NCBI GenBank assembly: GCA_038087875.1
Contig: CM075992.1
Location: forward strand, 2,420,001-2,484,000
DNA from: Malacoraja senta
Taxonomy: Eukaryota
Direction: 5' to 3'
DNA: 64,000 bases
Part shown: positions 28,020 through 61,795 of the stretch, piece by piece
How the letters are laid out: every line of letters begins with the position of its first letter
Numbering within the stretch: position 1 is the stretch's first letter
Translations under genes and position numbers: made by a program
The notes under the pieces: model-generated
What the model saw: the letters and a program-made list of their open reading frames with translations, nothing else
Database searches by the model: none
Told to the model about the DNA's origin: nothing

Positions 28020-28309
28020 GTGAAGAATCGACAAGGGATATCAACAAAATTCCAATAGTTGTGTGGGCAATAATAACAGTATTATTAATAGTATTATTAA
28101 TGGCAATAATTTGCTATTACCTGATCAACAGAGCTCGGAAAACAGGAGAATATAATCTACTGAATGCAACACCTAACCAAAACCAAGAAATCCCTCGTGT
28201 GAATGAACCTCTGGACATTTTTCCTTTGCAGGAAGTGATTTCAAACGGCAATGACAAAAACTCACAGATTAGTCCAAATAATAAAAGTTATATTACACCT
28301 GTGAGTTAG
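28020..28309 (+). CDS. ICAM/VCAM-like gene, exon 6 (TM helix, cytoplasmic tail, stop)
   Basis: tttccatag acceptor in phase 1. TM IPIVVWAIITVLLIVLLMAIICYYLI, then basic RARKTGEYNL (compare VCAM1 RKANMKGSYSL), stop TAG 28307-28309. The six exons sum to 1527 nt = 508 aa + stop. Confidence 0.9.
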
Positions 28310-36590: not shown

Positions 36591-38308
36591 ACAAGCTGGA
36601 CAGGCAGCATCTCTGCGTAAAAGAAATAGGTGATGTTTCGGGTCCAGCACAAAATGATGGAATGACTCAGTGGGACAGGCAGCAACTCTGGGGGAAAGGA
36701 ATAGGTGATGTTTCGGGTCATCGATCCAGGGGACTTGATAGATTCCACATTTATTTCCTAGGTAATAGGAGGAGAAAGTGATGGCTGAGATTTGTTTTTG
36801 GATGTTGGTTGAGAGTCGTCTGAAGAAGGATCTCGCCCCGAAACGTCCCCCATTCCTTCTCTCCAGAGATGCTGCCTGTCCCGCTGAGTTACTCCAGCAT
36901 TTTGTGTCTATATTTGGTTTAAACCAGCATCTGCAGTTCCTTCATACACATGCAATGCATTGAGCTTGTTGGGGGCAGAGGTGATGTGTTGTGATCAGCG
37001 ATTCTGCCGATTCCACTGTGCAGCTGTTTACAGTGTACAAGGCTTGCAACGATCGATGTGAACCTGTGTAAACAAGCTGCGACTCTGGCTTGGTATGGAG
37101 TGGAGATGTGCAGGCAAAACTGCTTTCCTTTTTTACAAATACTCTCATAATTAAAGGCAACAAATCATTTGTCTTCCTAATTGTTCGCCGTGTCTGCAAG
37201 GTGATGTGTACATGGACATGTACGTGCATGTGAACACCCAAACTACCCTCCTTTTAGATTTTGTGCTCTAAAGTGGATGACAACATATTTTTCACTGCAC
37301 ATCCCATTTGGGAATGCTCCTCCCTATTCTTGCATCTTTAATTTTTGTGAAGAGGGAAGAATGAGTCCATTCAAGCATTTTGATGAAAATCAGTCAGGAC
37401 AACATGACATTCTTTCAATTCAAGACAATTTAGACTGTTAAATTATCCTGTTAAGTTCAAAGCCACTGGCTATCTTCCAGTGTAATTGCAAATGGCTCAA
37501 GGATTGTTGGTTTAGACACAGAGTGCTGGAGTAACTCAGTGGGTCAGGCAGCATCTCTGGAGAACATGGATAGGTGACGTTTCACAGACTGCTGGAGTAA
37601 CTCAGCGGGTCAGGCAGCATCTCTGGAGAACATGGATAGGTGACACTTTGGGTCGAGACACGAGAAGGAGCCTGACTCAAAACGCCACCTATCCATGTTC
37701 TCTAGACATGCTGCCCGACCCACTGAGTTACTCCAGCACTCTGTGTCCATCTCTGTCATGACCCCAGTAATCTCCTCACTTGCTTCCCTCAGAATCACCG
37801 GATAGATCCTATCAGACTCCAAGAACTTATCCACCTTAATGTTTTTCAAAAGACCCAACAAATTTTTCTTGATACAAATATACTGGATGAGTACCTGAAT
37901 ATGGAAAGTTTAGTGGAATATGTGACAAATAGGACTAGCTTTGATGGGGCATCTTGGTTGACATGCATTAGTTGGACAAAGAGCCTGCTTCCATGTTGTA
38001 TGACTGGAGATGCAACATGGAAATAGGCACTTCGGCCCATCGAGTCCACGCCGACCCGCACACTATATCTTTTGGCTAATGGAGTTGAAGTCTCTCTGTG
38101 AGGCTGTGGCATGTTTCCAAGCTGCATGTCTCTATAAAGATTCCCCACCCTAATCTCACTATCATCCATATCCTTCTGCTTGGTGAAATGCTGATGCAAA
38201 GTACTCCTAAATAACCTCACCCACTTCCTCTGGCTCCACACGTACATGTCTTCCTTTGTACTTGAGTGAACCTATTTTTCCCCTGCCAACCCTCTGCCTT
38301 GGGATACT

Positions 38309-38540: not shown

Positions 38541-41500
38541 GGGATACTCCTTAATCCTACTTGTCTAGAACTTTTATTGGCCTCTTTATAGCTCCCAATT
38601 TCTTTAGTGTCTAGAGATACAATGTGGAAATAGGCCCTCCAGCCTATCGAGTCCACCATTGATCACCGGCACACTAGTTCCAAGTTATCCCACGTATGTA
38701 TGTTATCTCAATGCATCTCACACTATAGGGACAGTTCAGAGAAGCCAATTAACGTACAAACCTGCATGTCTTTGCATACCTTTGGAGTGTGGGAGGGAAC
38801 TAGAGCACCTGGAGAAAACCCACATGGTCACAGGAAGAACGTACACACTCCGCACAGACAGCACCCATAGTCAGGATCGAACCCAGATCTCTGGCACTGT
38901 GAGGCAGCAATTCTATCGCTGTGCTACCTTGCCACCCAAAGTACTTACATTATTTTCTGCGTCATTTGTAATCCTTATGGGCCTTGTCTGATTTCACCTT
39001 CCTAAACCTTACATGGAGTTCCTTTTTCATTTTAACTAAACATGTAATGTCTCATCATCCCAAGTTCCCTAACTGTGTCACAGCTGGTGTACTAGATACT
39101 GTTCTCGTCACCACACTAAAGGAAGGATTTAGAGTCATAGAGTGATAGTGTGGAAACAGGCCCTTCGGCTCCAACTTGCCCACACCGGCCAACATATCCC
39201 AGCTGCACTCGTCCCACCTGCCTGCATTTTGCCCATAACCCTCTAAACGTGTCCTATCCATCCAGTTAGGAGAGAGATCCTAATGTTGGAGACAGGAGGA
39301 TCATCAAAGACACCACATGGGAAGAATCAGGTAAGAGGTACCTTCAATTGTTTCCTCCTGGTGTAAGGATAAGAGATATGTCAGAGTTAGTTGCCCACGG
39401 CTGACAACAATGGTAGTGAACCATCTCAATAAATGGAACAGCGACTCGATTATTGTCAGTCCGAAGAAGCAGCCTGATCTGAATCACCTATCCATGTTCT
39501 CCAAAAATGTTGCTTGACCCTCTGAGTTACTCCAGCACCGTGTGTCTTTTTGTACAAACCAGCATCTGCAGTTCCTTGTGTCTCCATTTCAAAAAAGCCA
39601 TTGAGTCTCCACCCAATTCCCGGCTTTGGTTTGTAGCCTTGTAGTTTGTAGTTCACTTTAGTTTAGCTTGGAGATACAGTGCGGAAACAGGCCCTTCGGC
39701 CTACCGAGTCCGCACCGACCAGCAATCCCCGTACATTAACATTATCCCACACACACTAGGGACAATTTTACATATATACCAAGCCAATTAACATACAAAC
39801 CTATCCATCTTTGGTGTGCGGGAGGAAACTGAATGCGGTGACGGGGGAGAACGTACAAACCGTACAGACAGCACCCGTAGTCAGGATCGAACAGGGGTCT
39901 CCGTCGCAAAGGGTGGTAGGTGTATGGAACGAGCTGCCAGAAGAGGTAGTTGAGGAAGGGACTATTGGAACATTTAAAGAGGTACATGGATAGGACAGGT
40001 TTAGAGGGATATACTGTAGGCCAAACGCAGTCAGGTGGGACAAGGGTACATGGGACATGTTGCCCGGTGTGGGCAAGTTGGGCCGAAGGGCCTGTTTCCA
40101 CGCTGTAAGCCTCTATGACTATGACTCCAGGCTATTTATACCCATGGCCCAGAGCTGACCTCCCAGTCATTTCTCATCCTCTGGAGGGGAAGTCACTCAT
40201 GGTGTCTCTGTGTTTGCCCAGATACAATGTGTGCTGGAGGGGGAGGTGAGGCTGTGAATCCGCTCACCACCACCAAGTAGCCAGAATTAGCAATGCGGAA
40301 ATGGATGACAGCGGAACTGTGAGAGGTTACTAATACATGAGCACGAGGCAATTAGAGGGAACCAAAAATGCAGAAGTGCATTTTTAAATGAATGAATTGC
40401 CAAATGACAACTCATTAAGTGTGGTCACCTGAGTCAGGATAATGAGTGAATGGGGTTTGGGGCAAGAACACCAGGGTTGTGGAGGAGCTCTGGTTTATGG
40501 ACAGTGAAAGGGGTGAGATTGGCTCAGTATGTGGTGGAATGATTGAGTTTCTGGGAAAGAAGGGCAAGGGTGAGGGTCTCAGCAGCAGATTGGTAATGTT
40601 ACAAAGGACGAAACACATGTTACTGGTGATGGGGAAGATATGGCGTCAGAAGGTCTATCCTGGGTTAATGGTTCACCATAAGAATGTCTATGTTAAGCAA
40701 CTGTAGTCACAGAGGTAATGTTGGGAAAGGCAGCAGTCAATTTTAACAAGCTAATCTGCCACAATCTATCATATAATATTATGAGGGGCATAGATAGGGT
40801 AGACAATCAGAACCTTTCTCCCAGCATGGAAATGTCCAACACCAGAGGGCATATCTATAAGGTGAGAGGGGAAAAGATAAATGAAGATGTGCAGGACATG
40901 GGCACGTTTTTTACACAGTGAGTGGTGGGAGCCTGGAACGTAATGCCAGGGTAAGTTTAGTTTAGAGATACAGCGCGGAAACAGACCCTTCGGCCCGAGT
41001 CTGTGCGACCAGCGATCCCCGTACACTGACACTATCCTATGTGCACTAGGGACAATTTACAATTTTAACAAAGCCAATTGGCCTACAAACCTGTATTAGT
41101 GTGGGAGAAAACCGGAGATCCCGGAGAAAACCCACACAGATCCCGGGGAGAATGTACAATCTCCGTACAGACAGCAGCACCTAGTTAGGATCGTACCTGG
41201 GTTTCTGGTGCTGTAAGGCAGCAACTCTACCACTGTGCCACCACCAATGGTGGCGAGATATATGATAGTGGTGTTCACGAAGCTTTTAGATAGGCATGGA
41301 GGTACAGGAAATACAGGGATATGGATCATGTACAGGCAGATGAGATCAGTTTAACTTGGCATCACAGACATTGTAGGCTGAAAGGCCCCGTCCTATGCTG
41401 TACTGTTCTACAAACTGCGCTTTGGTTACAACTAGATGATCTTTGTTTGAGATGTTGATTGAAGGATAAACATTAGTCAGGACACAGTTAATAACTTCTC

Positions 41501-42180: not shown

Positions 42181-43367
42181 CGCAACGGCAACGTTCCAAA
42201 CGATCGCGTTCCACAAAATCTCATTCGCAAGATGATTAAAATGCCCATTAATTGACAGGAATTAAACATTAAATTCCTTCCTTGGCCTATAAATTTATGA
42301 CAATGAGATTTAAAAATCATGTTATATTGTGAATTCTTGTGTGAATGTTATTTGGACACTTAGGCTATTTAAAAATGTTAACATTTTCTTAAGAAATGGA
42401 TAGATGTTTAGATCTAGTAATTGAATTTTGTAATTAGCTACAATTAGGTAACTAACTAATGGCTCTGTCCCACGGGTTTGCGGTCGTTGGCAGTGAAGCG
42501 CGGCGTCGCCGGAAGAGGGGACCGCACGGCAACCTCGAGAGCACCGCATGGATGCTGCGCGGGGGGCCAAGTACGGCCGGTTCCACGAGCTTGCGGTTTC
42601 GGCTGATGACGTCTTTCGGATCGCGTGGTGGCGGCGGCCGTGCCGCACATGTACCTCACTGGCGGCGGCTGGTGGCGGCGGCTGTGCCGCACACGTACCT
42701 CACTGGCGGCGGATGTGGCGGCGGCTGTGCCGCACACGTACCTCACTGGCAGCGGCTGTGGCGGCGGCCGTGCCGCACACGTGCCTCACTGGCGGAGGCT
42801 GTGGCGGTGCAGGTTCGACTCACGGCGCTCGTGCCTCACTGGCGGCGGCTGTGGCGGTGACCGTGCCGCACTGGCGGCGGCTGTGCGGTAGGAACATATT
42901 TTTGGACAGTGTTGGGTTTTTTAGCACCGGCACTGTGCGTTTGACCGAGCCCGCGGTCTCTGGCGGCCCAGGAGCGGTAGATAGTTCCTGTTTCGCCGCC
43001 AATGACTGCAGACTCGTGAGACAGGCCTTTAATTATATGCTTTAATTTCAGGTCATCCAAGTAAGATTATTTCATATTTGTTTCAGAATGCTTAAATCTA
43101 TAATAACTAAACATTTCATTCAGTTCTCTTAATTTTAAGAAAGTTATGGGCTTTTGACTGTCCTCGATCACAGCTTTTGTGTTAAGTCAATGGAAAAGCA
43201 ATAGGGAACAAGATGCTAATTTAAGAGTATGAAAATGGCCATAACTTTTTTAATACTGAAGATATGAAAGTGAATTAGGTGTCAAATTAAACTTCTTTTT
43301 ATGCTTTATCTGATGGGATAAATTGCAGACTTGATTTTTTAAATCTCAAAATTTTGTAACATTGCTA
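42181..43367 (-). mobile_element. AT-rich DNA transposon end (terminus TAGCAATGTTACAAAATTTTGAG on the - strand), carrying a nested MITE
   Basis: About 400 bp is the reverse complement of 46773-47140. Absent from duplication copy 1. Confidence 0.75.
42460..43029. mobile_element. PIF/Harbinger-type MITE with internal ~43-bp GC-rich tandem repeats
   Basis: ~30-bp imperfect TIRs (ggctctgtcccacgggtttgc / gcagactcgtgagacaggcc) and a TAA TSD at 42457-42459 and 43030-43032. Confidence 0.8.
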
Positions 43368-46101: not shown

Positions 46102-46572
46102 TGCTCCTAGAACTTATGAAGGTATGAACTATGATGGGGAACAGCAGGGGGGGGGGTTGTTACTGTGATGGGAGACTGGGTAGGGAGGGGGTTACAGTGA
46201 TGGGAATGTGGGAGGTTTACTATGATGAGGCAGGAGTAGAGGAGTGGGGTACTGTCAAGGAAGGTGGTGTTTTTTTATGATCGGAATGTAGGTGAGGGAG
46301 AGAAGGGTGGGGAGTAACACCCATTGTGCTGATTATCAGAGCCAGTGTGAATCTTCCACTGATGTTAAGGGCAGTCTACAGCAAAGATACTAGTATCTTT
46401 GGTCTACAGCCTTTTTTTGGAACTGGGGCTTTCTCTGCCTTTAGTTTCTGAATTGTTTCTGGGAAATTAGAGAGATTGTCTGCATTAATAGCGAGCGTGT
46501 GGGCTGCGGGAGCGCTGTGTTCATTTGGACGGGCGGTGATCAAAGAGGCAGCAGGCGCCGAGGGTCGCAGTC

Positions 46573-46639
46573 ATGGTCTCTACACTCACTTCAAGCGGAA
46601 GATACCTTCACCTTGTCTTGTTCGTATTCACGTTAACAA
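46573..46639 (+). CDS. Duplicated signal-peptide exon 1 (second copy; no Ig exons follow inside the window)
   Basis: Identical to 16851-16917 except one synonymous change (GGG>GGA). ATG context and GTTAGT donor are intact. Confidence 0.7.
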
Positions 46640-46772
46640 GTTAGTACAATCCTCATATCAAACGCGTTTCTCCCATGGCGTGTAGCATTTTTATTTCATG
46701 GCCTAGCTATTAAGCGGAGCTCGAGAATCAGCGGGGGGATTTCCTGTCATTTATTAATGTCCAAACAAAAAG

Positions 46773-47775
46773 TAGGAATGTTACAACATTTTGAGATTTT
46801 AAAAATCAAGCATGTAATTTATCCCATCAGATAAAGCTTAAAAAGAACTTTAATTTGATACCTAATTCACTTTTATATCTTCAGTATTAAAAAAGATATG
46901 GCCATTTTTCATACTCGGAAATTAGCATCTTGTTCCCTATTGCTTTTCCAATGGGTTAACACAAAAGCTGCGATCGAGGACAGTCAAAAGCCCATAACTT
47001 TCTTAAAAATTAAGAGAACTGAATGAAAATTAGTTATTATAGATTGAAGGATTCTGAAACAAATATGAAACATCTTACTTGGATGACCTGAAATTAAAGT
47101 ATATAATTAGTTTGTTACCTAATTGTAGCTAATTACAAAATTGACCGTTGTGATAGTAATAAACACCCAGACTGCCTTGAAAATTCAAAAATGTGATATT
47201 CTCAAGATCAGAACTTTATTATTGTATTACATGCTGTAAGTCCGTAACAGATAGGTAAAGAAATCACAATTTCTAGCAATAGATCAAGTCTTTATGGAGA
47301 AGATCAGCTGCAAGCTGGTACATTGGTATATCATAATCAGTAGCATCATCATACTCCTCAGATTGTAACCAATACGCAAACTCTGTACACCCTGTTTTTC
47401 CTCAACTTTTCAATTTTGGCATTGTAAAGTACAGGTTTTTGCTCTTCAAACCACACATGACATGCCTTTCTGCCCACTACTTTCCCACTAAGAATGTCCT
47501 GTAGATCATCACATTTGGCGTAGTCCAAAATCGGATAATCTCTGCGAATGCTGTCTTCTTTGGAGACATCTGTTTAAAATGTGAAGGAAAAAAAACACTG
47601 AACAGCATGAACAGAAACAAGTTCTTATTTCAGTTTTAGAAAAAAAGGTAGAAATAATAACGTTAAATGCTAAAGCAAATAGTAAATACCCAACAAAAAA
47701 TTCATATTCATCATTTTCATCAAATCAATTAAATTCATCTAATCAATTAAATTCATCTAAATTCAATTACTAGAT
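46773..47775 (+). mobile_element. Second end of the same DNA transposon family, including the last coding exon
   Basis: Starts TAGGAATGTTACAACATTTTGAG, is inverted relative to 42181-43367, and contains the decayed exon 47273-47569. Confidence 0.75.
47273..47569 (-). pseudogene. Frameshifted terminal coding exon inside a DNA transposon (C-terminal Tudor/Spindlin-like beta domain)
   Basis: tttaaacag acceptor. Reads ...ILSGKVVGRKACHVWFEEQKPVLYNAKIEKLRKNRVYRV/AYWLQSEEYDDATDYDIPMYQLAADLLHKDLIYC* with one extra base near 47378. The domain assignment is by eye. Confidence 0.5.
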
Positions 47776-48480
47776 GTGTCCCCCATCCTCTCTGTCCCCG
47801 CCCTCTGCCCCCCTCTCTGCCCCCTCCCTCTGCCCTCCCCCCCACCCTCTCTTCCCCCCTCCCTCTCTAGGGAATCCCTCACTTCCCCCATTCCCCCACT
47901 CCCTCTTCCTTCCCCCCCTTCCTCTATCTCCCCCTCTGCCCTCCCTCCACCTCACCAATCTCATCCTCCCCCTCCCCCCACCTCACCCCTCTCCCCCTCC
48001 ACATCCACCTCCCTCTCCTCTACCCCATCCCTCTCACCCCCTACCCTCTCTCTCTCACCCCCCTCCCCGAGGCAGAGAAAGAGAGGGGGGGAGGGGGGGG
48101 GTGAGACGGGGTGGAGAGGGTGGGGGTGGAGGGGGGGATGGAGAGGGCCCATCCTCGCTGCCCCACGACTCTCTGCCCCCCTCCCTTTCTGCCCCCCCTC
48201 TCTGCTACCCCCCTCCCTCTCTAGGAAATCCCTCACTTCCCCCTCCCCCTTCTTTCCTCCCCTCCTTTCTCCCCCCTCTGCCCTCCCTCCACCTCACCCC
48301 TCCCCCATACCTCACATCTCCCCCCGTCTCCCATTCTCCCCCTCTCACCCCACTTCCCCCTCCTCCCCCCTGTGTGTTTGGGGGGTGGTTAGTGTGTGTG
48401 TGACCCCCCCCCCGCCACCATGCCTTGAGGGGACAGGACCCCTTGGTCTAGTATCTTATCTATCTATCTATCTATCTATC

Positions 48481-49145
48481 TTTTTTTTATTTTATTATTT
48501 TTTAATTAAAAAAAAAAAAATTAGAAGTACATTACATTACAACCAATTACATTAGTACTCGTCACGTATATCTTATTACAATTAATGTACTGTCATTTTT
48601 TACACTAATAAAGGGAAAGGATGAGATTGAGAGAAAGGAGAAAGTGAAGGAAAATAGTGAAAGTGTAAAAAACTTGACAACAAAAAAGAACAAAGACCCT
48701 ATAAGAAAGAAATTAAAAAAAAAAATTAAGAAATAGACCCTAAAAAAGAAGAAAAAAGAGAAAGAGGGAAAAGAGAAAAACAAATACTTTGTTGTAAGCA
48801 TCACGCAAATGGGATATACCAACTCTCCAGCTTTCATCCCCCCTTACCTGACTTCAGTTTTATTTTTATTTAAAGTACTTTTGCACCCTATACTTTTAAT
48901 AATTCTATAAATGCAGACCACGTCAGGTGGAAGTGATCTGGTTTACCTGCCAGGAGGAGTCTTATCTCTTCTAGGTGTAATGTTTCGAACATATTTGAAA
49001 TCCACATGTTGGTATTGGAGCGTTTTTCCAGAATTTTAGGATTATCGTTTTTCCAGTTATTAACCCATAGTCTATTAATTTCTTTTGGAACACATTTAGT
49101 TCTGGACTATCTTCCGTTGTTCCGAAGATAATCCATTCTGCCTAG
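48481..49145 (-). mobile_element. L1/Tx1 3' fragment between two Helitron 3' ends
   Basis: Similar to 45150-45430 (ttacctgc..aggag..cttatctcttctaggtgtaa) with a poly(A)-like end. Confidence 0.7.
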
Positions 49146-49237
49146 TTGGTTAGTGTCTGTGTGACCCCCCCCCCCCGCCTTGAGGGGACGGGACCCCTTG
49201 GTCTGGTCTAGTCTGTCTGTCTGTCTGTCTGTCTGTC

Positions 49238-49312
<75 letters not shown>

Positions 49313-52300
49313 TATCTTTATCTATAAGGCATCTGTGCAATTTGCAAAAACGGAACAATTTTTTACATATTCCCGTAGGGTTTTTCCTCCTCTTAATGTT
49401 TGTAAAATTAGAACATTTGGTTCATCCTTTCCCTGCTTTTCGGTAAAAAACATTAAAAATTTCAAAATGTTAAAAAAAAATCCAACTGCTTCTCACCCAT
49501 AGAACGTTGAACTTTCCATCGTGTGATGTCACAATGCCCAATGCTCACAGACGTCCAATCGCAATGGATCTCATTTACATATGCCTTTGCTCCAGCCCCA
49601 GCCCCGCCCCCTGTGTCGATGCGCGTGACTCTCTCGCCCACAACCCGCCCCAAAACTCAGGTTTTACAAACATCTAAGTATTAAAACTCTACCCCTTCCC
49701 TATCTACCCCGCTTCTCCTACTCACCCCCCCCCCTCCTCTCCCCACCCCCTTCTCGGCTGTTGACCCTCACCCAACAGTCGACCATCGCTCCTGGGCTGC
49801 CCAACTAACTGTCAACGCTCACTCCTGGGCGGCCAGACCACACTGTCGACTCGCACTCCTGGGCGGCCCGACCAACTGTCAACGCTCGCTCCCGCCCAAT
49901 GGCGGCCGTTGCTTCCCGCCCCGCCCACACTGAAAGCAGCCGCTTCTTTTCAAATCCTAAATGCCGAGTCATTTTGCCCGGCTTGGCACTGCAGATACTG
50001 GTTTGTACCGAAGATAGATACACAAAACTGGAGAAACTCAGCGGGTCAGGCAGCATCTCTGGAGAAAGGAAGGTGAGGTTTCGTGTCTCTCTCCCTCTAC
50101 TCCCCTCTCTCTCTCTCTCTCTCCCACTCCTCTCCCCCTCTCTCTCTCTCCCTCTCCCCACCCCGTCTCCCCCTCCCCCCTCTCCCCCCGTATGTGTGGG
50201 GATGGTTGTGTGACACCGAATGCCGCCCCCCCCCTGCAACCGCGCATTGTGGGAACCCGCTATTTCCAGCTGTTGATGCCCGCTATTCCAGCGGTTGACG
50301 CCCGTTATTTCCAGCTGTTGATGCCCGTTATTCCAGCTGTTGACGCACGTTGACCGCCCCGCCCACCACATCTGCAGCCGATCCCCTCTCCCGCAAGATG
50401 AACATCCTCAAGCTCCACCGGCCGGTGCGTCGACATTTTATAACCTTGTGACATAAACACATGTCATGTACATATAACAAACACCTTTAATTATTTCCCT
50501 GTATGAAATACCAGATGTGCCTTTTATTTTATAATTCTATTCTCAATGCACCTGTTAACCTTATTGCTAAGTTCAAATGTATTGTTTATAGACAATAGGT
50601 GCAGGGGTAGGCCATTCGGCACTTCGAGCCAGCACCGCCATTCAATGTGATCATGGCTGATCATCCCCAATCAGTACCAATCTCTATACTTATAAAACTC
50701 TGATCTTGGATGTGTGTGTATTTGTGCAATGTTCGGGTGCGTTTCCCCGTTTGTTACTTCCCGTTACTGCACCAAAGATCTTATAGCTATAGGATCTCTG
50801 AGCTGCACCGCCCGGCCCCGCACCTTGCTGTTGGCTGGCGGAGGAGGGGTGGCGCTCGTACGCCCCCTCAACCCCCTTATCCTGGGACCCCTCCACTCTA
50901 TCCCGCACTGATCCCCATTCCCGCCTCTATTCAGTCCTCACTGACATCCCCTGTGCTCCCCTCCCCATCTACCCCCCCCCCCATCTATTCATCCTGCGCT
51001 GATCACCCTATCCACCTCGCATTGATTCTCCTGCCGCCCCCCCCCATCCATCCTACACCGGTTCCCCAATTCACCCTGTACTTACCCCTTTCCCATCCAT
51101 CCTGCACTTCTCCCCCATCCATCCTGTACTAATCCATGCATTCATCCCGTACTGACCCACCCTCCATTTACCCTGCACCTTCCCTCCTTCCCCTCATTCA
51201 TCCTGTAGTGATCCCCCTTTCATCCTGAGCGACCCTCCGATCCACACTGTACTGACCCCCCCCCCCATTCATCCTGCGCTGATCTCCCCCCCCCATCCAT
51301 CCTGTACTGATCCTCCCATTCAAGTAGAATGAGGGGAACAGTCTGAAGAAGGGTCTCGACCCGAAACGTTGCCTATTTCCTTCGCTCCATAGATGCTGCC
51401 TCACCCGCTGAGTTTCACCAGCACTTTTGTCTACCCCCATCCATCCCGTACTGAACCCCCCCATTCAACACCACTGACATCCCCGGTGCTCTCCCCTCAC
51501 AATTTTACCTACTCCAACCAACACGTACTAATTCACCTGCCTCAATCCATCCATTCTGCACCGACTGCCTTTTAACCCCCTCCCCCCCCACCCCGCCATC
51601 TATCCACCCCGCACTGATTCACACACACACCCCTCCCTGACCCTATTGTGCTGGAAATGTCTTCAGAGCGAACATTGACTATGTTTCATAATGGAATGCA
51701 ATCAAATGTGTTTTAATTCCCAATGTTATTATTTGTTTTAATCCATAAAGATGGATTAATTAAATTGTTAACATGTGAAACATTAAAACCGCAGTCTTCG
51801 ATTGTCACTGCTGCCGTTGACACGTTATTACAGAATTCATTTTAACAGCAAATCAATGCTCTTAATATGGAGTATCAGTACTGTAGTTATTTAATGAGCA
51901 ACATTCACAACTATACGTACGCATATATGTTACCGTGGTCCAGGATTTATTGACACAGGTTGATCATACGCTGAATAATCCATCCACATTTTTGTTTGGA
52001 AGTGGAAAGAACTAATAGAAATTGCATTAATTGCAATGTGTAAAAAGAGTTGAGATACTCTCTTATAATTTTGCTGCATGTCATTGTGGGATATATCATG
52101 TGTTGATTAGTGAATATGTTTAGTTTGTGACTTTGAAACAGAAATAAATAAAAAGCTGCCAAAGTTGCCCTGTGCGTCTCTCTGTCTGTCTGTCTGTCTG
52201 TCTCTGTCTCTGTCTCTGTCTCTGTCTCTCTCCCTCCCTCCCTCTCTCCCTCTCCCTCTCTCTTTCTTTCTTCTCCCCCCCCTCTCCCCCTCTCCCCTCC

Positions 52301-52961
52301 CCCGTGTGTGTGGGGGGTGGTTAGTGTGCGTGTGACACCGAATGCCGCCCCCCCTGCCTCCGCGCATTGGGGGAACCCGCTATTTCCAGCTGTTGATGCC
52401 CGCTATTCCAGCTGTTGACGCCCGTTATTTCCAGCTGTTGATGCCCGTTATTCCAGTTGTTGATGCCCTTGACCACCCCGCCCGCCACATCTTGCAGCCG
52501 ATCCCCTCTCCCGCAAGATGAACATCCTCAAGCTCCACCGGCCGGTGCGTCGACATTTTATAACCTTGTGACTATAAACACATGTCATGTACATATAACA
52601 AACACCTTTAATTATTTCCCTGGACAAAATACCGGATATTCCTTTTATTTTATACTTCTATTCTCAATGCACCTGTTAACCTTATTGCTAAGTTCAAATG
52701 TATTGTTTATAGACAATAGGTGCATGAGTAGGCCATTCGGCCCTTCGAACCAGCACCGCCATTCAATGTGATCATGGCTGATCATCCCCAATCAGTACCA
52801 ATCTCTATACTTATGGATGTGTGTGTATTTGTGCAATGTTCGGGTGCTTTTCCCCGTTTGTTACTTCCCGTTTTTTTCCGGTACTAATTTCTTTACAATT
52901 TTAAAAGTTTGCGGTTATTTAATCTTTAAATTTACCTGAATCAAAAATCTCTACCTTCCAG

Positions 52962-53114
52962 AAACTGTTCCATCTACAAGTTCAGAGGCAACTACAACAG
53001 CTTCAAGCACCACATCAGTTCCCACATCAACGACAATAGAAACTATGGGCAGCACAAGTGCCTCTACAACAGAAGCTACCACCACCTTCATGGCCACACC
53101 ACTTAAAACCATCG
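52962..53114 (+). CDS. Mucin-like Ser/Thr-rich exon (TVPSTSSEATTTASSTTSVPTSTTIETMGSTSASTTEATTTFMATPLKTI)
   Basis: ccttccag acceptor, G|GTGAGT donor, 153 nt, phase 1-1, open frame, 29 of 50 full codons Ser/Thr. Not a simple DNA repeat. Confidence 0.7.
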
Positions 53115-54190
53115 GTGAGTCCAGAATGCAACAGTAATGCAAAATAAATTTGTTCCTTACACATCCAGTAAATAAGAATCGTTACAATAGACCAAGTTAA
53201 CATGGATTTGCCATGTGTGTTCCATGGCATATACTGTGGCATATCTTCTGTCAAAAACACCACAGATTTTGTTTCCAAACTCTTTGGTACCTCTCTAGCC
53301 GCTCCTGCGCAGTTGGAGGCTATGCTTGAGTGGATAGGGCAGGGGATGGGGTAAAAGGAGCGAATGAATAATATAAATATAATATCAAGGGGGGTTTAGT
53401 GTGTGAGTTGGGGGGGGGGGGTTAGTGTGCGTGTGGTTTCTTGGTTTCTTGGTCCTCCAAAATATTCCAAATGGAATTTAAACTGGAGGTGGAGGAATTT
53501 AAACTGGTGTGAAACTGCAGCACCCCCCCCCCCCTGCAAACGCACGTTGGGGAAACAGACCCAACGGGTCTGCACTTGGTCTAGTGTATATTTAAAACTC
53601 TCGTGTTGGTTTGTCCGGGATCTATTTCGCGAATATTCGTTTAAGGCGTTTGTGAATCTCCTTCTGCAAAATTTGCAAAAACAGAACATATTCTGGGAGG
53701 GTTTTTCCTCCTTCACTTAATGTTTGGAAAATTAGAAAATTCGGTTCACCCTTTCCCTGCTTTTAAAAATTTCAAAATGTTAAAAAAAATCAAACTGCTT
53801 CTCACCCATAGAACGTTGATGAACGTTCCATCATGTGATGTCACAATGCCATCCCTCACAGATAGCCAATCGCAATGGATCTCATTTACATATGCCTTTG
53901 CTCCAGCCCCGCCCTCCCCGCCGCCTGTGTCGATGCGCATGATCACGTGATCAACATAACGGCCGTTGAGACTCTCTCCGCCCACAACCCGCCCCAAAAC
54001 ACAGGTTTTATAAACATGTAAGTATCCCCTCTGTACCCCCTCCCTATCTACCCCCCTCCTCCTACTCTCCCCCCCCCTCTCCTCTCTCCACCCCCCCTTC
54101 TTTTTACCCGGCCCCCCCCTTCTCCTCTCCCCTAACAGAAAATAACATATTCAGGACAGAATAATATCGAACACAATAATATTTCCTCAC

Positions 54191-54297
54191 CTTTCTTTCT
54201 TATTGGGGAACCTGAAGAAAGACAGATAGGGTCGTCTACATTGTCGATTACAGCAATTTATAGCAGAACAGTGAGCTGTAGATGTAGTGGACCCCAT
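54191..54297 (-). pseudogene. Isolated first exon of a THAP-domain protein (MGSTTSTAHCSAINCCNRQCRRPYLSFFRFPNKKER)
   Basis: C-x4-C...LSFFRFP is the N-terminal half of a THAP zinc finger. Ends at an AG|GTGAG donor with a GC-rich region upstream. No second THAP exon was seen. Confidence 0.7.
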
Positions 54298-56202
54298 GAC
54301 GGCATCGAGGCAGTCCTTCAAAATGGGGCGAACAATCGACACCCCGCGCGGGCGCGTTCTCAACGGCCGCCCAACTTGGCGGGAAGAGGCAGCCAATGGG
54401 ATGCATGGGGGGGGTGGGGGGGTGGATGGTGACAGCGCGCGAGGCCCCGCCTCCCCAAGCATGCGCGGGAAGCCGCAAGGTGCTCACTCCGGCGCCAGCT
54501 GTCGTCGCTCCCCCGCACGGCTCCAACTTTCGACGCCCGTTAACCTCCCGCCTCCCCAACTCTCCAGCCCGTTAACATCCCGCCATCGACGTCCGTTAAT
54601 ATCCCGCCATCGACGTCCGTTAACCTCCCGCCGACCCAATTATCAACACTCGTTCGCTCACGGCCTCCAGCTGTTGACACTCCCGCTCGCCCGCCTTCAC
54701 CCTCTCAATTGTCGACGCCCATCAACCGACCGCACTGGCACCGCCACCTGTGTCCGCCCGTTAACCGCAAGGTCGAACTGTTGCCGATCCTTCTCGCCCG
54801 TACACTCAAATCAATTGTTCAATGCCCGTTAACCGCCCGCCCCGCATCAGTCGACGCTCGGCCGTCCAGCTGTTGACCCTCGCTCATTCACGTACACCAA
54901 CAGTCGACCATCGCTCCTGTGCTGCCCGACCAACTGTCAACGCTCGCTCCCGGCCCAATCCTGCGCAATGGCGGCCGTTGCTTCCCGCGCTGAAAGCGGC
55001 CGCTTCTTTTCAAATCCTAAATGCCGAGTCATTTTGCCCGGCTTGGCACTGCAGATACTGGTTTGTACCGAAGATAGATACACAAAACTGGAGAAACTCA
55101 GCGGGTCAGGCAGCATCTCTGGAGAAAGGAAGGTGATGTTTTGTGTCTCTCTCCTTCTACTCCCCCCTCTCTCTCTCCCCCACTCCTCTCTCTCCCCCCT
55201 CTCTCTCTCTCACCCTTTCTCTCTCTCTATCCCCCTCTCTCTCCCTCTCCCCCCTATCTCTCCCCCCCTCTCACTCCCCTCTCTCTCCCACTCCCCTCTC
55301 CCACTCTCTCTATCCCCCTCTCCCTCCATCTTCCTCTCTCTCACCCTTTCTCTCTCCCCCCCTCTCCCCCCTGTCTCTCTCCCACTCTCTCTCACCCTTT
55401 CTCTCTCTCCCCCCTTTCTCTCCCTCTTCCTCTCTCCCTCTTCCTCCCCCCCTCTCTCTCCCTCTCTCTCTCTCTCCCCCTCTCTCTGCCTCTCCCCACT
55501 CTCTGCCTCTCCCCACCCCGTCTCTCTCTCACCCCCCCCCCCCGTGTGTGTGGGGGGTGGTTAGTGTGCGTGTGACACCGAATGCCGCCCCCCCCCTGCA
55601 TCCGCGCATTGGGGCAACCCGCTATTTCCAGCTGTTGATGCCCGCTATTCCAGCTGTTGACGCCCGTTATTTCCAGCTGTTGACGCCCGTTATTCCAGCT
55701 GTTGACGCCCGGCACATCTGCAGCCGATCCCCTCTCCCGCAAGATGAACATCCTCACGCTCCACCGGCCGGTGCGTCGATATTTTATAACCTTGTGACTA
55801 TAAACACATGTCATGTACATATAACAAACACCTTTAATTATTTCCCTGTACGAAATACCAGATGTGCCTTTTATTTTATAATTCTATTCTCAATGCACCT
55901 GTTAACCTTATTGCTAAGTTCAAATGTATTGTTTATAGACAATAGGTGCAGGAGTAGACCATTCGGCACTTCGAGCCAGCACCGCCATTCAATGTGATCA
56001 TGGCTGATCATCCCCAATCAGTACCAATCTCTATACTTATAAAACTCTGATCTTGGATGTGTGTGTATTTGTGCAATGTTCGGGTGCGTTTCCCGTTTGT
56101 TACTTCCCGTTTTTTTCCGGTACTAATTTCTTTACAATTTTAAAAGTTCAAGGTTATTTAATCTTTAAATTTACCTGAATCAAAAATCTCCACCTTTCCC
56201 AG

Positions 56203-56227
56203 AAACCACTGTACCATCTACAAATCT
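56203..56227 (+). pseudogene. Truncated relative of the mucin-like exon
   Basis: Same upstream intron sequence and acceptor as 52962 (tttcccag AA ACC ACT GTA CCA TCT ACA), then jumps to sequence matching 53262 onward, so the exon body and donor are missing. Confidence 0.65.
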
Positions 56228-58150
56228 ACAGATTTTGTTTCCAAACTCTTTGGTACCTCTCTAGCCGCTGCTGTGCAGTTGGAGGCTATGTGTGTGGATA
56301 GGGCGGGGGATGGGGTAAAAGGAGCGAATAAATATAATATCAAGGGGGGTTAGTGTGCGTGTGAAACCGCAGCACACCTCCCCCCTCTCGCAAACGCGCA
56401 TTGGGGAAACAGTCCCAAAGAGTCTGCACTTGGTCTAGTATATATTTAAAACTCTCGTGTTGGTTTGTCCAGGCTATTTCGCGAATATTCGTTTTAGACG
56501 TCGAAATTCGCTTTGCCCCTCGAGATAGGGTGGGGATGGGGTAAAAGGAGCCAATGAATAATATTAATATAACATCAAGGGGGGTGGTTAGTGTGTGTGT
56601 ATGTGTTGGGGGGGGGGGGGTGGTTAGTGTGTGTGTTGGGGGTGTGGTTAGTGTGTGTTGGGGGGGTGATTAGTGTGTGCGTGGGGGGGGGGGGTGGTGG
56701 TTAGTGTGTGTGTGACGCCGCTACCTCCCCCCCCCCGCAACCGCGCGTTGAATGGACAGGACCCTCTTCCCCTCTCCCCTCCCTCTTCCCCTCTCCCCTC
56801 CCTCTTCCCCTCCCCACTCTCTGCCCCCCCATCCCTCTCCCCTCCTCCACCCCCCCTCTCCCCTCCTCCACCCACCTCTACCCCCCACTAAACACCCTCC
56901 CCTCCTCCAAACCCCTCTCCGCTACCCCCCTCCCTTTCCCGCCCTCTCTTTCCCCTCCTCTTCCCACTCCCCCTCTCTCATCTCTCCCACCTCTCTCCCC
57001 ACCTCCTCTCTCCCCTCCTCTTCCCCCCTCCTCCCTCCCCCTCTCTCTCCCCCTCTCTGCCCTTCCCCCTCCTCAACCTCTCCCCCTCTCCCTCCCTCCC
57101 GCTCCCCTCCCTGTCTCCCCCTATCCCCCTCCCCCCACCCTGTGTGCGTGGGAGGTGGTTAGTGTGCGTGTGAAGCCGCAGGCCCCCCCCCCCCCGCAAC
57201 CGCACATTGAGGGGACGGGACACAGCGGTCTCCCCACCCCGTCTCCCCTTACCCACCTTTACCCCCTCCCCCTTGTGTGTGTGAAGTCGCAGCACCACCC
57301 CCCCCCCCCCAGCGGGTCTGCACTTGGTCTAGTATCTTCTATCTATATTTAAAACTCTGTGTGTGTGTGTTTCTGGCTGTGTGTGTTTCTGTCTGTGGGT
57401 GCCAGCCTTCCTTTGATTCGTTGCTACACCAACACCACACGCAGAAACGCCGAGATTTTTTCCATTTCGGTAGAGATTTCACTTTTCATTCCAAGTAGCC
57501 ACTCCTGATTAAATTTCGTCGTGTTTATGTACACATTTTAAATAAAATCCTTCTCTCCAACCCACCCCCAAAATTTCAAAATGTAAAAAAAAAACAGCTC
57601 TCACACATAGAATGTTGGTGTACGTTCCATCGTGTGATGTCACAATGCCCAATGCTCACAGATGTCCAATCGGAATGGATCAATTTACATATGCCTTTGC
57701 AGCAGCCCCAGCCCCTCCCCCCCGCCCCCGCAGCCTGTGTCGAAGCGCGTCATCACGTGTGTGGGAATAGAGAAAGAGGATTGGGGGTGATAGGGAATGA
57801 GGAACAGATGGACTGTCCCTACCCCTCCCCCTTCCACTCTTCCTCCCCACTATTTCCCCTCTCTCCCCCCACCCCTTTCCCCCTCCCTCCACACTCTTCC
57901 CCCTCCCTCCCCTACCCTATCTCCCTCCTCCCCTCCCTCTCCCCCCCTCCCCCGCACATCTCTCCCCCTCCCCATCCCTCTCTCCTCACCCTCTCCTCCC
58001 CCTCCTCCAACCCCCATCCCTCTCTCTCCCCCACCCTCCTCCCCCCACCACCATTCACTCCCCCACCCCTACCCTCTCGCTCCCTCCCCCACCACCATTC
58101 ACTCCCCCACCATCATTCACTCCCCCACCCCTTTCCCTCTCTCCCCCACC

Positions 58151-58350
58151 NNNNNNNNNNNNNNNNNNNNNNNNNNNNNNNNNNNNNNNNNNNNNNNNNN
58201 NNNNNNNNNNNNNNNNNNNNNNNNNNNNNNNNNNNNNNNNNNNNNNNNNNNNNNNNNNNNNNNNNNNNNNNNNNNNNNNNNNNNNNNNNNNNNNNNNNNN
58301 NNNNNNNNNNNNNNNNNNNNNNNNNNNNNNNNNNNNNNNNNNNNNNNNNN
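58151..58350. other. Assembly gap (200 N)
   Basis: Run of N between C-rich low-complexity sequence and a Penelope repeat. Confidence 0.99.
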
Positions 58351-59796
58351 CCCGTCTGAGGATGGGCTTCGGACCAAAGCGTTGCCTATTTCCTTCGCTC
58401 CATAGATGCTGCTGCACCCGCTGTGTTTCTCCAGCTTTTTTTTTGTGTACCTGTCTCTCTGTCTCTCCTCTCTCTCTCTCTCTCTCTCTCTGCCCTTCTC
58501 TCTTCACAGCCCGCGGCTCGACTCATGCACGCCCGCTCCAACCACCCCCCCTTCACCTCTCTCCCCCATCCTCTCTCCACCCCTCACCTCTCTCCCCCTT
58601 CCTCTCCACCCTCCTCCTCCCCCTTTTCCAATTTTTTTTTTCTAACATTAAATTTTCCCTCTGCCCCAACCCCTCTAGACGCATCTGAGAGTTGAGGGCT
58701 ATTCGTCAGTGCATAGGGTGGAGATCTGATAAAGGAAGCAAATTAAAAAATTAAAATAATATCCAGGGGTGTGATGAGTGTGTGTGTTTGTGGGTGCCGG
58801 ATTCCGTGCTTTGGAGGAAAGGGGGTGATTAGTGTGACGCCACAGCCTCCCCCCCCCCCGCACTTGGCCTAGTGTATTATATAAAACTCTGTGGCTGCCA
58901 TCCGTCCGGCGTCAAAATACCACTTTGATACCGCCCTAGGCCCACACACCACGCGGAAACGCCGAAATTTTTTACCATTTCTAAACAGATTACATTTATC
59001 TTTACGAATAGCCACTCCTGATTAAATTTGGTCGTGTTTATGTACACTTTTTTAAATAAAATACTTCTTCCCCCTCCCCCCCAAAAACATTTCAAAATGA
59101 TTTTAAAAAACAGCTCAGCCATAGAATGTTAGTAAAAATTCCGTTGTGTGATGTCACAATGCCCGATGCTCACAGATGTCCAATCGGAATGGATCCATTT
59201 ACATATGCCTTTGCAGCAGCCCCAGCCCCTCCCCCACAACCCCACAGCCTGTGTCGAAGGGCGTCGTCACGTGTGTGGGGGTGATAGGGAATGGGGAAAT
59301 TTCAAAATGTTAAAAAAAACAGCTCTCAGCAATAGAATGTTAATGAAGGTTCCGTTTTGTGATGTCACAATGCCCAAATCGGAATGGATCCACTTACATA
59401 TGCCTTTGCAGTAGCCACAGCCTCAGCGCCAGCCCATCCCCCCCCAACCCCCGCAGCCTGTGTTGAAGGGCGTCGTCACTTGTGTGGGAATAGAGAAAGA
59501 GAGGGGAACAGATGGACTGTCCCTACCCCTCCTACTTCCACTCTCCCTCCCCACTCTTCCCCCTCTCTCCTCTCCCCCTCCCTCCCCTCCAACACCCTCT
59601 CTTCCCCCTCCACCACCCCTCTTCACCCCATCTCCCCCCCACCCCTTCCCCTCTCTCTTGCACCACTCCCCGCTACCCCTCTGCCCCTCACTCCCCACTC
59701 TTCCACTCTCCATCCCCCACCTCTCTCCCTCCACCCTCCCTCTCTCCCTCTCTTCCCCCTACTCCTCTCACCTTCCCCTCATCCCCTCTCTCCACC

Positions 59797-61632
59797 TCTA
59801 ACATCACTGCCTGCTGCACCTGCATGCCTACTTTCAATGACTGGTGTACCATGACACCCAGGTCTCGTTGCATCTCCCCTTTTCCTAATCGGCCACCATT
59901 CAGATAATAGTCCACTTTCCTGTTTTTGCCACCAAAGTGGATAACCTCACATTTATCCACATTATACTGCATCTGCCATGCCTTTGCCCACTCACCCAAC
60001 CTATCCATGTCACCTTGCAGCCTCCTAGCATCCTCCTCACAGCTAACGCTGCCCCCCCAGCTTTGTGTCATCCGCAAACTTGGAGATGTTGCATTCAATT
60101 CCCTCATCCAGTTCATTAATATATATTGTAAATAGCTGGGGTCCCAGCACTGAGCCTTGCGGTACCCACTAGTCACTGCCTGCCATTCTGAAAAGGACCC
60201 GTTTACTCCTACTCTTTGCTTCCTGTCTGCCAGCCAGTTCTCTATCCACATCAATACTGAACCCCAATACCATGTGCTTTAAGTTTGTATGCTAATCCCT
60301 TATGTGGGACCTTGTTGAAAGCCTTCTGAAAGTCCAGATATAACACAATCACTGGTTCTCCCTTATCCACTCTACTAGTTACATCCTCGAAAATTCTATA
60401 AGATTCGTCAGACATGATTTACCTTTCATAAATCCATGCTGACTTTGTCAAATGAACTCACCACTTTCCAAATGTGCCGCTATCCCATCTTTAATAACTG
60501 ACTCCAGAATTTTCCGCACCACCGATGTTAGACTAACTGGTCTGTAATTCCCCGTTTTCCTCTCTTCCTCCATTTTTAAAAAGTGAGGTTACATTAGCTA
60601 CCCTCCAGTCCTCAGGAACTACTCCAGAATCTAAAGAGTTTTGAAAAATTATCACTAATGCATCCACTATTTCTGCGGCTACTTCCTTAAGTACTCTGGG
60701 ATGCAACTTATCCGGCCCTGGGGATTTATCGGCCTTTAATCCATTCAATTTACCTAACACCACTTCCCGGCTAACCTGGATTTCACTCAGTTCCTCCATC
60801 TCATTTTAACCCCCGGTCCCTTGCTATTTCCGGCAGATTATTTATGTCTTCCTTAGTGAAGACAGAACCAAAGTAATTATTCAATTGGTCTGCCATGTCC
60901 TTGTTCCCCATGATCAATTTGCCTGTTTCTGACTGCAAGGGACCTACATTTGTTTTAACTAATCTTTTCCTCTTGACATATCTATAAAACATTTGCAGTC
61001 AGTTTTTATGTTCCCTGCCAGTTTTCTTTCATAATCTATTTTCCCTTTCCTAATTAAGCCTTTTGTCCTCCTCTGCTGGACTCTGAATTTCTCCCAGTCC
61101 TCTGGTAGGCTGCTTGTTCTGGCTAATTTGTAGGCTTCCTCTTTTGTTTTGATACTATCCCTGATTTCCCTTGTTATCCACGGATGTACTACCTTCCCTG
61201 ATTTATTCTTTTGCCAAACTGGGATGAACACTTGTTGTAGTTCATCCATGCAGTTTTTAAATGCCTTCCATTGCATATCCACTGTCAACCCTTTAAGAAT
61301 CATTGGCCAGTCTATCTTGGCCAATTCACGTCTCATACCCTCTTTAAGTTCAGGACCTATGTTTCTGAATTAACAATGCCACTCTCCATCCTAATGAAGA
61401 ACTCAACCATATTATGGTCACTCTTGCCCAAGGGGCCATGCACAACAAGACTGCTAACTAACCCTTCCTCATTACTCAATACCCAGTCTAGAATAGCCTG
61501 CTCTCTCGTTGGTTCTTCTACATGTTGGTTTAGAAAACTATCCCGCATACATTCCAAGAAATCCTCTTCCTCAGCACCCCTGCCAATTTGATTCACCCAA
61601 TCTATATGTAGATTTAAGTCACCCATTATAAT
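59797..61632 (-). mobile_element. CR1 LINE ORF2 internal fragment (APE end + RT), frameshifted
   Basis: IIMGDLNL..IDW, QHVEEPTREQAILDWVL, GPLGKSDHNM, KSPGPDKLHPRVLKE, VPEDWRVANV, WIENWLADRKQRV, WQMQYNVDKC. Confidence 0.93.
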
Positions 61633-61639
61633 GGTTTTA

Positions 61640-61795
61640 CCATTATATGATGTATGACGTATGATGCGCGGTGTTTTATCAACAATCGCAACATTTTTTT
61701 TGTCGCCGCTGGATTTTGAGATGTTCAAAATCTTTTGGCGACACTGATATGACGCCGGCAGTCGCCGAAAAAATCGCCAAGTGGGACAGATCCTT
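61640..61795. mobile_element. Harbinger-type MITE right half
   Basis: Ends aatcgccaagtgggacagatcc, resembling the TIR of the 42460 element. Confidence 0.5.

What the first reader, a model, noticed from the sequence alone, without database searches (positions are those of the whole stretch)
46573..53114. Possible new gene: duplicated adhesion-gene leader exon plus a phase-matched mucin exon inside a Helitron array
Seen: the copied promoter and signal exon (phase-1 donor intact) is followed 6.3 kb later by an intact phase 1-1 exon that is 58% Ser/Thr. Splicing gives MVSTLTSSGRYLHLVLFVFTLT-K-TVPSTSSEATTT... in frame. No such exon was seen in the first gene copy. The exon lies between a Helitron 5' end (52802) and a hairpin-CTAG 3' end (53581). 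Known: Helitrons capture and shuffle exons, and MAdCAM-1 combines Ig and mucin domains. Inference: either exon shuffling has produced a signal+mucin(+Ig) chimera, or the exon is passive Helitron cargo from an unrelated mucin gene.
Basis: partly seen in the sequence, partly recalled or inferred. Interest (0 to 1): 0.78.

Follow-up and report, generated by a model that had tools for sequence, protein, structure and literature searches.

The report
Helitron-borne MUC16 exon in skate ICAM
In a skate-like genome an intact exon matching the repeat of a MUC16-like mucin lies between Helitron-type transposon ends behind a duplicated ICAM-like leader exon, and a predicted little-skate gene joins the same exon to ICAM domains, so a transposon likely built a mucin-capped adhesion protein, although no transcript of that splice has been seen.

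Summary
In detail: a duplicated ICAM-like leader exon (46573-46639) and an in-frame phase 1-1 exon (52962-53114, 58% Ser/Thr) between TC and CTAG ends. New here: (1) the donor. The exon is one 53-codon repeat of a MUC16-like gene on another scaffold (72-80% identical to four Amblyraja repeats; 0 of 5000 shuffles as good). In relatives this exon plus intron forms a ~470-480 bp tandem array, and one putative RNA run shows it spliced head to tail at the same sites. About 370 bp of that unit sits in the element. (2) A Leucoraja erinacea gene model (LOC129714544) joins 2-3 copies of the same exon to ICAM Ig domains; no other held shark or ray ICAM has one. (3) A sister element at 56.0-56.4 kb has lost most of the exon. 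Against function: no junction read was obtainable, no Ig exon follows within the window, substitutions look neutral, and intactness alone has a 50-70% chance. Best reading: Helitron-mediated exon shuffling, probably before this skate split from Leucoraja, likely giving a mucin-capped ICAM (0.5); passive cargo remains possible (0.3). New variant of a known process.

The parts
16851..16917 (+). Gene 1 (ICAM-like) leader exon, coding part
   Evidence: identical in sequence to the leader of Leucoraja XP_055520211
19829..20107 (+). Gene 1 Ig domain 1 exon
   Evidence: ICAM_N 24.8 bits, above cut-off 21
21326..21640 (+). Gene 1 Ig domain 2 exon
23423..23713 (+). Gene 1 Ig domain 3 exon
   Evidence: ICAM1_3_5_D2 32.3 bits, above cut-off 27.5
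25450..25734 (+). Gene 1 Ig domain 4 exon
28020..28309 (+). Gene 1 transmembrane and tail exon to the stop codon
36465..46771 (+). Patchy duplicate of the region upstream of gene 1, its promoter, leader and first ~130 bases of intron 1
   Evidence: blocks at 2-5% substitutions
39410..39460 (+). Stretch found upstream of copy 2 only; in Amblyraja it begins a gene model (XP_032906715) that continues into ICAM Ig domains
   Evidence: 17 of 17 residues identical
46573..46639 (+). Copy 2 leader exon, coding part, phase-1 donor intact
46773..47109 (-). 340-bp repeat (inverted copy at 43030-43367) at the point where similarity to gene 1 ends
50681..50765 (+). Element C: same Helitron-type 5' end as A and B, no mucin piece behind it
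52802..53584 (+). Element A: non-autonomous Helitron-type element, A|TC ... hairpin, CTAG|T
52923..53290 (+). Captured piece of the mucin repeat unit: ~39 bases of intron, the exon, ~175 bases of intron (right edge approximate)
   Evidence: contigs of two other runs (X10 record 11, X8 record 24) stop matching at 52923; X10 record 13 stops at 53292
52962..53114 (+). Intact phase 1-1 Ser/Thr-rich exon, one MUC16-like repeat lacking two codons
53545..53584 (+). 3' hairpin region and CTAG end of element A
56028..56438 (+). Element B: sister of A (about 4% substitutions), acceptor at 56203 kept, ~280 bp including most of the exon and its donor deleted; frame stops after 19 codons
48412..58872 (+). 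Run of Helitron-type ends on the + strand (CTAG ends at 48451, 49211, 53584, 56438, 57332, 58872)
   Evidence: 49211 read from the printed flank
58151..58350 (.). Assembly gap of 200 N; may hide further exons

Best explanation
A Ser/Thr-rich exon matching one repeat of a MUC16-like mucin lies, with about 370 bp of its native unit, between Helitron-type ends behind a duplicated ICAM-like leader; a non-autonomous Helitron likely carried it there, probably before this skate split from Leucoraja, and it is likely spliced between the leader and ICAM Ig exons to give a predicted mucin-capped adhesion protein. Steps: (1) the donor gene encodes its mucin region as tandem phase 1-1 exons, one repeat each (array and head-to-tail splice seen in relatives; that the array is the MUC16-like gene is inferred from the protein match); (2) capture of one exon with both splice sites and insertion into intron 1 of a tandemly duplicated ICAM gene (inferred); (3) all ICAM introns are phase 1 (shown for gene 1), so the exon fits any of them in frame; (4) local amplification, to about four units in Leucoraja (three whole ones in the model) and two here, of which B decayed (B shown, order inferred); (5) the O-glycosylated segment would sit on top of the integrin-binding domain 1, acting as a shield or lectin ligand (predicted, untested).
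For: Donor: the only mucin-region hit besides Leucoraja among 102 proteins from a search of 1.84 billion is Amblyraja mucin-16-like XP_032902718, 23 SEA domains, 53-residue period; window exon 72-80% identical to its units 1-4, 0 of 5000 shuffles reach the score for units 3 and 4; its record's longest contig (34.66 Mb) differs from that of the Amblyraja ICAM cluster (24.0 Mb). Chimera: Leucoraja XP_055520209/210 carry 3 and 2 copies of the unit (79% identical over 48 residues) directly before ICAM Ig domains; it was the only hit of 645 candidates. Derived state: 3 of 156 held proteins have a 40-residue window with 45% Ser+Thr: these two and the MUC16-like protein. Single origin: window and Leucoraja share Ser at column 8 and Met at column 46 where MUC16 units 1-4 all have Thr; the 8 extra residues of the Leucoraja unit match the window's intron just before the acceptor (4 of 7 residues in A). 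Age of the frame: X1 record 2 (52881-53021) bridges the left junction and X8 record 28 (53253-53347) the right one in other organisms. Hint only, since summed depth is no copy number: X10 depth is 118, 128 and 119 at 52623, 52812 and 52963, i.e. flank, Helitron 5' end and low-depth exon version move together, at about five times a lone contig (23.5). Amblyraja links the copy-2 upstream region to Ig exons.
Against: No transcript of this species was available (no run held half the words; best share 0.22) and the laid stretch did not include the leader, so 46639->52962 is untested. No Ig exon or gene-1 intron match lies in 46772-64000. The Leucoraja records are predicted models without a leader; their read support was not seen, and none of the 6 Logan-sourced proteins in those two clusters has a mucin part. 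Four Amblyraja ICAM models and the Rhinoraja one lack it. The 10 listed exon differences from the array majority give 6 amino-acid changes, each a loss of Thr, and 3-4 synonymous changes against 27.6% synonymous sites, which is what neutrality gives (163 rows were not shown). An exon like this stays intact by chance in 49-70% of simulations at 10-5% substitutions. The leader is not significantly more conserved than its flanks (p = 0.31). Both shared residues also occur in mucin units elsewhere (Met at the N-terminus of the MUC16-like protein; a T at 52982 in part of the X10 depth beyond record 11). X10 record 11, the Leucoraja-like version, leaves the window's sequence at 52923 and so does not show the Helitron-side junction. 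Paralogues within the window (2-5%) are closer than relatives' contigs (8-12%), so the present leader may be a younger duplicate or converted copy.
Confidence: 0.5

Rival explanations
1. Passive cargo: the Helitron carried the MUC16-like exon into the ICAM cluster, but it is not spliced in; the Leucoraja model is a gene-prediction join and the exon here is decaying like its sister B.
For: Neutral-looking substitutions and loss of six Thr; 49-70% chance of staying intact; B is broken; no mucin in Amblyraja, Rhinoraja or Logan-sourced proteins of the cluster; captured fragments are mostly partial genes (PMC12001565, passage).
Against: Two Leucoraja isoforms differing by one unit are annotated; its three units are all in frame and would need a new acceptor 8 codons upstream (inferred); both indels inside exon A are 3 bases while the two listed in its intron flanks are 1 base.
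Confidence: 0.3
2. The exon reached the ICAM cluster by ectopic recombination or segmental copying, and Helitron ends accumulated around it or re-captured it locally afterwards; the chimera may be real but the transposon did not create it.
For: X10 record 11 (Leucoraja-like states) continues 38 letters unlike the window left of 52923; the region is dense with Helitron-type ends; A and B share flanks outside the ends, as local duplication would give.
Against: A short piece cut inside both introns, same strand, bounded by a 5' and a 3' end, is the expected product of capture (PMC4224331, passages); both junctions occur in other organisms and flank, 5' end and exon have equal depth in X10 (hint).
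Confidence: 0.12
3. Copy 2 is a truncated duplicate: leader and mucin exon are spliced but no Ig exons follow, giving a short secreted glycopeptide or a transcript removed by nonsense-mediated decay (B's acceptor leads to a stop).
For: No Ig exon in the 17 kb after the leader, whereas intron 1 of gene 1 is 2.9 kb; B's frame stops after 19 codons.
Against: A 200-N gap and the window edge hide sequence; Amblyraja and Leucoraja have Ig exons behind the equivalent pieces.
Confidence: 0.08

Closest known systems
Helitron gene-fragment capture in bats and Xenopus (PMC4224331, PMC12001565; passages read)
   Same: Non-autonomous TC...CTAG element holding a host exon with intron flanks; tandem arrangement of elements.
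   Different: Cartilaginous fish; donor identified as a one-repeat-per-exon mucin array; the cargo would enter the coding frame of a resident gene, with a matching model in a second genus.
Leucoraja erinacea LOC129714544 (XP_055520209/210, named 'zonadhesin-like' and 'uncharacterized')
   Same: Same mucin unit (79% over 48 residues) tied to the same ICAM-like family; probable counterpart of copy 2.
   Different: 2-3 whole units of 61 residues versus one of 51 codons here; model has Ig domains 1, 2, 4 and a membrane anchor but no leader, the window has the leader but no Ig exon in view.
MUC16-like mucin of Amblyraja radiata (XP_032902718)
   Same: 53-residue Thr/Ser repeat, 72-80% identical to the exon for units 1-4.
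   Different: 23 SEA domains, other scaffold; it is the donor, not the gene in the window.
MAdCAM-1 (PMC13453429, passages)
   Same: ICAM/VCAM-type Ig domains combined with a mucin region; dual integrin and selectin ligand would be the functional model.
   Different: MAdCAM-1 has two Ig domains followed by the mucin region; here the mucin would precede three or four Ig domains and is borrowed from MUC16.
Mucinization by gain of exonic repeats in mammals (PMC9417175, passages); chicken Muc13 (PMC1552070, passages)
   Same: A non-mucin protein gains a PTS segment; one repeat per exon as in chicken Muc13.
   Different: In PMC9417175 the repeats arise in place (the words 'shuffling' and 'transpos' do not occur in its main text); here the repeat is imported from another mucin gene.

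Membership tests
Helitron (non-autonomous), element A | 5' end begins TC with an AT-rich tract | tested here: met
   TC at 52802, same end at 50681 and 56028; criterion from PMC12001565 passage
Helitron (non-autonomous), element A | 3' end CTAG | tested here: met
   53581-53584; five similar ends nearby on the same strand
Helitron (non-autonomous), element A | Inserted between A and T | tested here: met
   A before 52802, T after 53584 (criterion recalled)
Helitron (non-autonomous), element A | GC-rich hairpin just before the 3' end | tested here: inconclusive
   7-pair stem, -6.9 kcal/mol, z -1.95, 11 of 200 shuffles as good; three other ends tested were no better than shuffles
Helitron (non-autonomous), element A | Empty orthologous site and dispersed copies proving transposition of this element | not testable with these tools
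   no genome held; the 3' body is abundant in relatives' contigs, but both whole copies seen are local
Helitron (autonomous) | RepHel reading frame | tested here: not met
   element is 783 bp; no stop-free stretch over 295 codons in 47100-59000; these were not scanned against Pfam
ICAM/VCAM family (gene 1) | ICAM-type N-terminal and D2 Ig domains, leader, membrane anchor | tested here: met
   ICAM_N and ICAM1_3_5_D2 above cut-off; hydrophobic segment in last exon
ICAM/VCAM family (copy 2) | Ig exons downstream of the leader | tested here: inconclusive
   none in 46772-64000; gap and window edge leave it open
MAdCAM-1 | Two Ig domains followed by a mucin region toward the membrane | tested here: not met
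   mucin lies N-terminal to the Ig domains in the Leucoraja model and by exon order here
MAdCAM-1 | Binds integrin alpha4beta7 and L-selectin | not testable with these tools
   needs experiment
MUC16-like mucin (donor P0039) | PTS region followed by multiple SEA domains and a membrane anchor | tested here: met
   multiple SEA as the mark of MUC16 from PMC1552070 passage; orthology to human MUC16 by tree not tested
MUC16-like mucin (the chimera) | SEA domains | tested here: not met
   none in P0013

The most novel reading that the evidence does not exclude
A Helitron lifted one exon out of the MUC16 repeat array and dropped it into a duplicated ICAM gene of rajid skates, where it was spliced in, kept, amplified and re-tuned (new acceptor in Leucoraja): a transposon-built, mucin-capped ICAM, an independent route to a MAdCAM-1-like Ig-plus-mucin receptor and a new way for a protein to become a mucin, by borrowing the repeat rather than growing it.
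Probability: 0.35. Interest if true: 0.82.

Novelty: new variant of a known kind. Interest (0 to 1): 0.62.

Why it matters
Helitron capture is well documented, but cases in vertebrates where donor, carrier and a recipient coding gene can all be named are few (my knowledge; the two vertebrate papers read in passages describe captured fragments mainly as cargo). Here all three are named, the exon phases fit, and a second genus gives a ready comparison, so one junction-read test decides it. If real, it adds import by a transposon to the known ways of gaining a mucin domain and gives skates a lineage-specific adhesion receptor. It also explains two misnamed RefSeq proteins. No paper on it was found in searches (skate, mucin, ICAM; Helitron, captured, mucin; Helitron, elasmobranch, skate), judged from listings only; subscription journals are mostly not covered.

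Tried and rejected
No whole genome is held, so copies of the cargo could not be counted and sequence beyond 64000 could not be read. Sequencing runs: none of 24 listed held half of the 32 words; 4 of the 24 were laid, all contigs of other organisms; the other 20 are no evidence. X5 has no cover on the intron bins beside the exon or on 52896-52947, where the Leucoraja-type extension would lie; missing cover is not used as evidence either way. Summed depths of thousands over the exon suggest a large array but are no copy number. Chance Ser/Thr frame: rejected. Mucin exon native to the ICAM family: rejected, since only the two Leucoraja models among the held ICAM-like proteins have it and the repeat matches MUC16. 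Giant mucin array hidden in the gap as part of this gene: unlikely, both gap flanks are Helitron-type repeats without mucin units and the array protein ends in SEA domains. Copy 2 as an assembly haplotype: unlikely, large indels and different insertions, and Amblyraja and Leucoraja also have tandem copies. BLASTP of the exon against the MUC16-like protein was weak (best E 9e-5) because of composition adjustment; the unit alignment and shuffle test were used instead. Pfam found nothing for the exon. Earlier scan findings: none. No structure or complex was predicted. Signal-peptide cleavage at the new junction was not tested. No supplementary files were read.
Full report
SETTING. The window has no held genome. 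It holds one complete ICAM-like gene: six exons at 16851-28309, all introns phase 1, giving 508 residues with leader, four Ig domains, membrane anchor and tail. Its second Ig exon is 81-83% identical to Amblyraja and Leucoraja proteins and 73% to Rhinoraja, so the source is inferred to be a rajid skate; the species was not identified.

OBSERVATION. Confirmed. The promoter, leader and first ~130 intron bases of gene 1 are duplicated at 46102-46771, within a patchy duplicate reaching back to 36465 (2-5% substitutions). The leader differs at 1 of 67 coding bases, its flanks at 11 of 232, not a significant difference (p = 0.31). The exon at 52962-53114 has AG/GT, phase 1-1, no stop and 58% Ser/Thr, and is the only such candidate above 50% in the window. 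It lies between A|TC at 52802 and CTAG|T at 53584; the hairpin is modest (11 of 200 shuffles as good). No Ig exon and no gene-1 intron match other than common repeats lies in 46772-64000; there is a 200-N gap at 58151-58350.

THE DONOR. A full search with the Leucoraja protein described below returned 102 proteins; besides that protein's own cluster only one matched the mucin part: Amblyraja mucin-16-like XP_032902718, 3584 residues, 23 SEA domains, 53-residue period at its N-terminus, hydrophobic C-terminal segment. The window exon is 72, 74, 78 and 80% identical to its units 1-4 and 57% to unit 5; 0 of 5000 shuffles reach the score for units 3 and 4. The record lies on a different-sized contig from the Amblyraja ICAM cluster. 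Contigs from 4 of 24 listed runs, all other organisms, were laid on 52480-54030. Two DNA contigs hold the exon twice about 470-480 bp apart. Two 3-base insertions bring the exon to 53 codons, and the listed majority letters turn six window residues into Thr as in the MUC16-like repeat (classified by hand). Contigs stop matching at 52923 (two runs) and 53292 (one), so about 370 bp of the unit was taken. That the DNA array is the MUC16-like gene is inferred from the protein match.

THE RECIPIENT. The exon's only hit among 645 candidates was Leucoraja erinacea LOC129714544, whose two predicted isoforms carry 3 and 2 copies of the unit (79% identical over 48 residues) in front of ICAM domains 1, 2 and 4 and a membrane anchor; they start inside a further unit and lack a leader. 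Their accession numbers directly precede those of the plain four-domain ICAM, 93% identical in the Ig part, which suggests a tandem pair as here. Of 156 held proteins, mostly ICAM-like or other Ig proteins, only these two and the MUC16-like protein have a 45% Ser+Thr window, so the mucin cap is a derived state. The window exon and the Leucoraja units share two residues against MUC16 units 1-4, though each variant also occurs in other mucin units. The Leucoraja unit is 61 residues; its 8 extra residues match the window's intron before the acceptor, which suggests Leucoraja lost the donor's acceptor and uses one 8 codons upstream, still in frame (inferred). Both element junctions occur in other organisms (X1 record 2, X8 record 28), and in X10 the upstream flank, the Helitron 5' end and the low-depth exon version have nearly equal depth (118, 128, 119; a hint only). 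An Amblyraja model starts in the copy-2 upstream region (17 of 17 residues) and runs into Ig domains, so Ig exons probably follow copy 2 beyond the window or in the gap.

MECHANISM. Shown: sequence anatomy, phase match, donor match, array and its splice in relatives, the Leucoraja model. Inferred: a non-autonomous Helitron captured one exon with both splice sites (end bypass or compound capture, as in PMC4224331, passages) and inserted it, same strand, into intron 1 of a duplicated ICAM gene; because donor and recipient both use phase-1 introns it fits in frame; local duplication then gave several live units in Leucoraja and one live plus one broken unit here. Predicted: a type I membrane protein with an O-glycosylated cap above the integrin-binding domain, working like MAdCAM-1 in combining both modules (PMC13453429, passages) but in the opposite order.

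WHAT COUNTS AGAINST. No junction read exists in hand; the laid stretch did not include the leader and no run of this species was found. The Leucoraja records are predictions whose read support I could not see; none of 6 Logan-sourced proteins in those clusters, nor the Amblyraja or Rhinoraja models, has the mucin part. The 10 listed differences in the exon are 3-4 synonymous against 27.6% synonymous sites, so neutral-looking, from a table with 163 rows hidden. Such an exon survives substitutions intact in 49-70% of simulations; only the pattern of 3-base indels inside and 1-base indels outside hints at constraint. X10 record 11, which has the Leucoraja-like states, does not show the Helitron-side junction. 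Paralogues in the window are closer to each other (2-5%) than to relatives' contigs (about 8-12%), so the leader now in front of the exon may be a younger copy.

ODDS. Donor is the MUC16-like array: about 0.9. Same event as in Leucoraja: about 0.75. Helitron was the carrier: about 0.7. Chimeric transcript in at least one skate: about 0.55; in this species about 0.4. Whole best reading 0.5; passive cargo 0.3; non-Helitron transfer 0.12; truncated copy 0.08. These are judgements, not computed.

KNOWN AND NEW. Helitron capture is known in bats and Xenopus (PMC4224331, PMC12001565; passages), mucin gain by in-place repeat growth in mammals (PMC9417175; passages), one repeat per exon in chicken Muc13 (PMC1552070; passages). 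Element A meets the TC, CTAG and AT criteria, the hairpin is inconclusive and transposition was not testable. The chimera is not a MAdCAM-1 or MUC16 member. Searches listed no paper on this locus (listings and abstract starts only; no supplements read). Verdict: new variant of a known kind, interest 0.62; a single junction-read test would raise it to about 0.8 or lower it to about 0.3.

Noticed in passing
relatives' contigs on window 52923-53292; P0039: The MUC16-like mucin region of skates appears to be a long tandem array of ~470-480 bp exon-intron units, one 53-codon repeat per exon, as described for chicken Muc13; the public model holds only about five units.
   Followed up: partly
window 19829-25734: Gene 1 domain 1 is 65-66% identical to Leucoraja and Amblyraja counterparts, domains 2-4 76-87%, the leader identical: domain 1 may be under diversifying selection.
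   Followed up: no
P0010 (Amblyraja XP_032906714): 1103-residue model with three tandem blocks of the same Ig domains, so the ICAM-like cluster expands by tandem duplication in skates.
   Followed up: no
window 1-168 and 36465-36634: The duplicate matches the first bases of the window, so the duplicated block begins before the window.
   Followed up: no
window 52939-52961: Intron bases before the acceptor translate to a match with the 8 extra residues of the Leucoraja unit; copies A and B have different frameshifts there, so it is intronic here and probably exonised in Leucoraja.
   Followed up: partly
window 29140-29725 and 42628-42871: Minisatellites of 44 bp (13.5 copies) and 43 bp (5.5 copies).
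   Followed up: no
window 4615-6000: By eye, a decayed retrotransposon coding fragment on the minus strand that interrupts copy 1's upstream region; label recalled, not tested.
   Followed up: no
window 47770-58872: About 11 kb of stacked Helitron-type pieces with C-rich low-complexity bodies, all on the + strand, with an assembly gap inside.
   Followed up: partly
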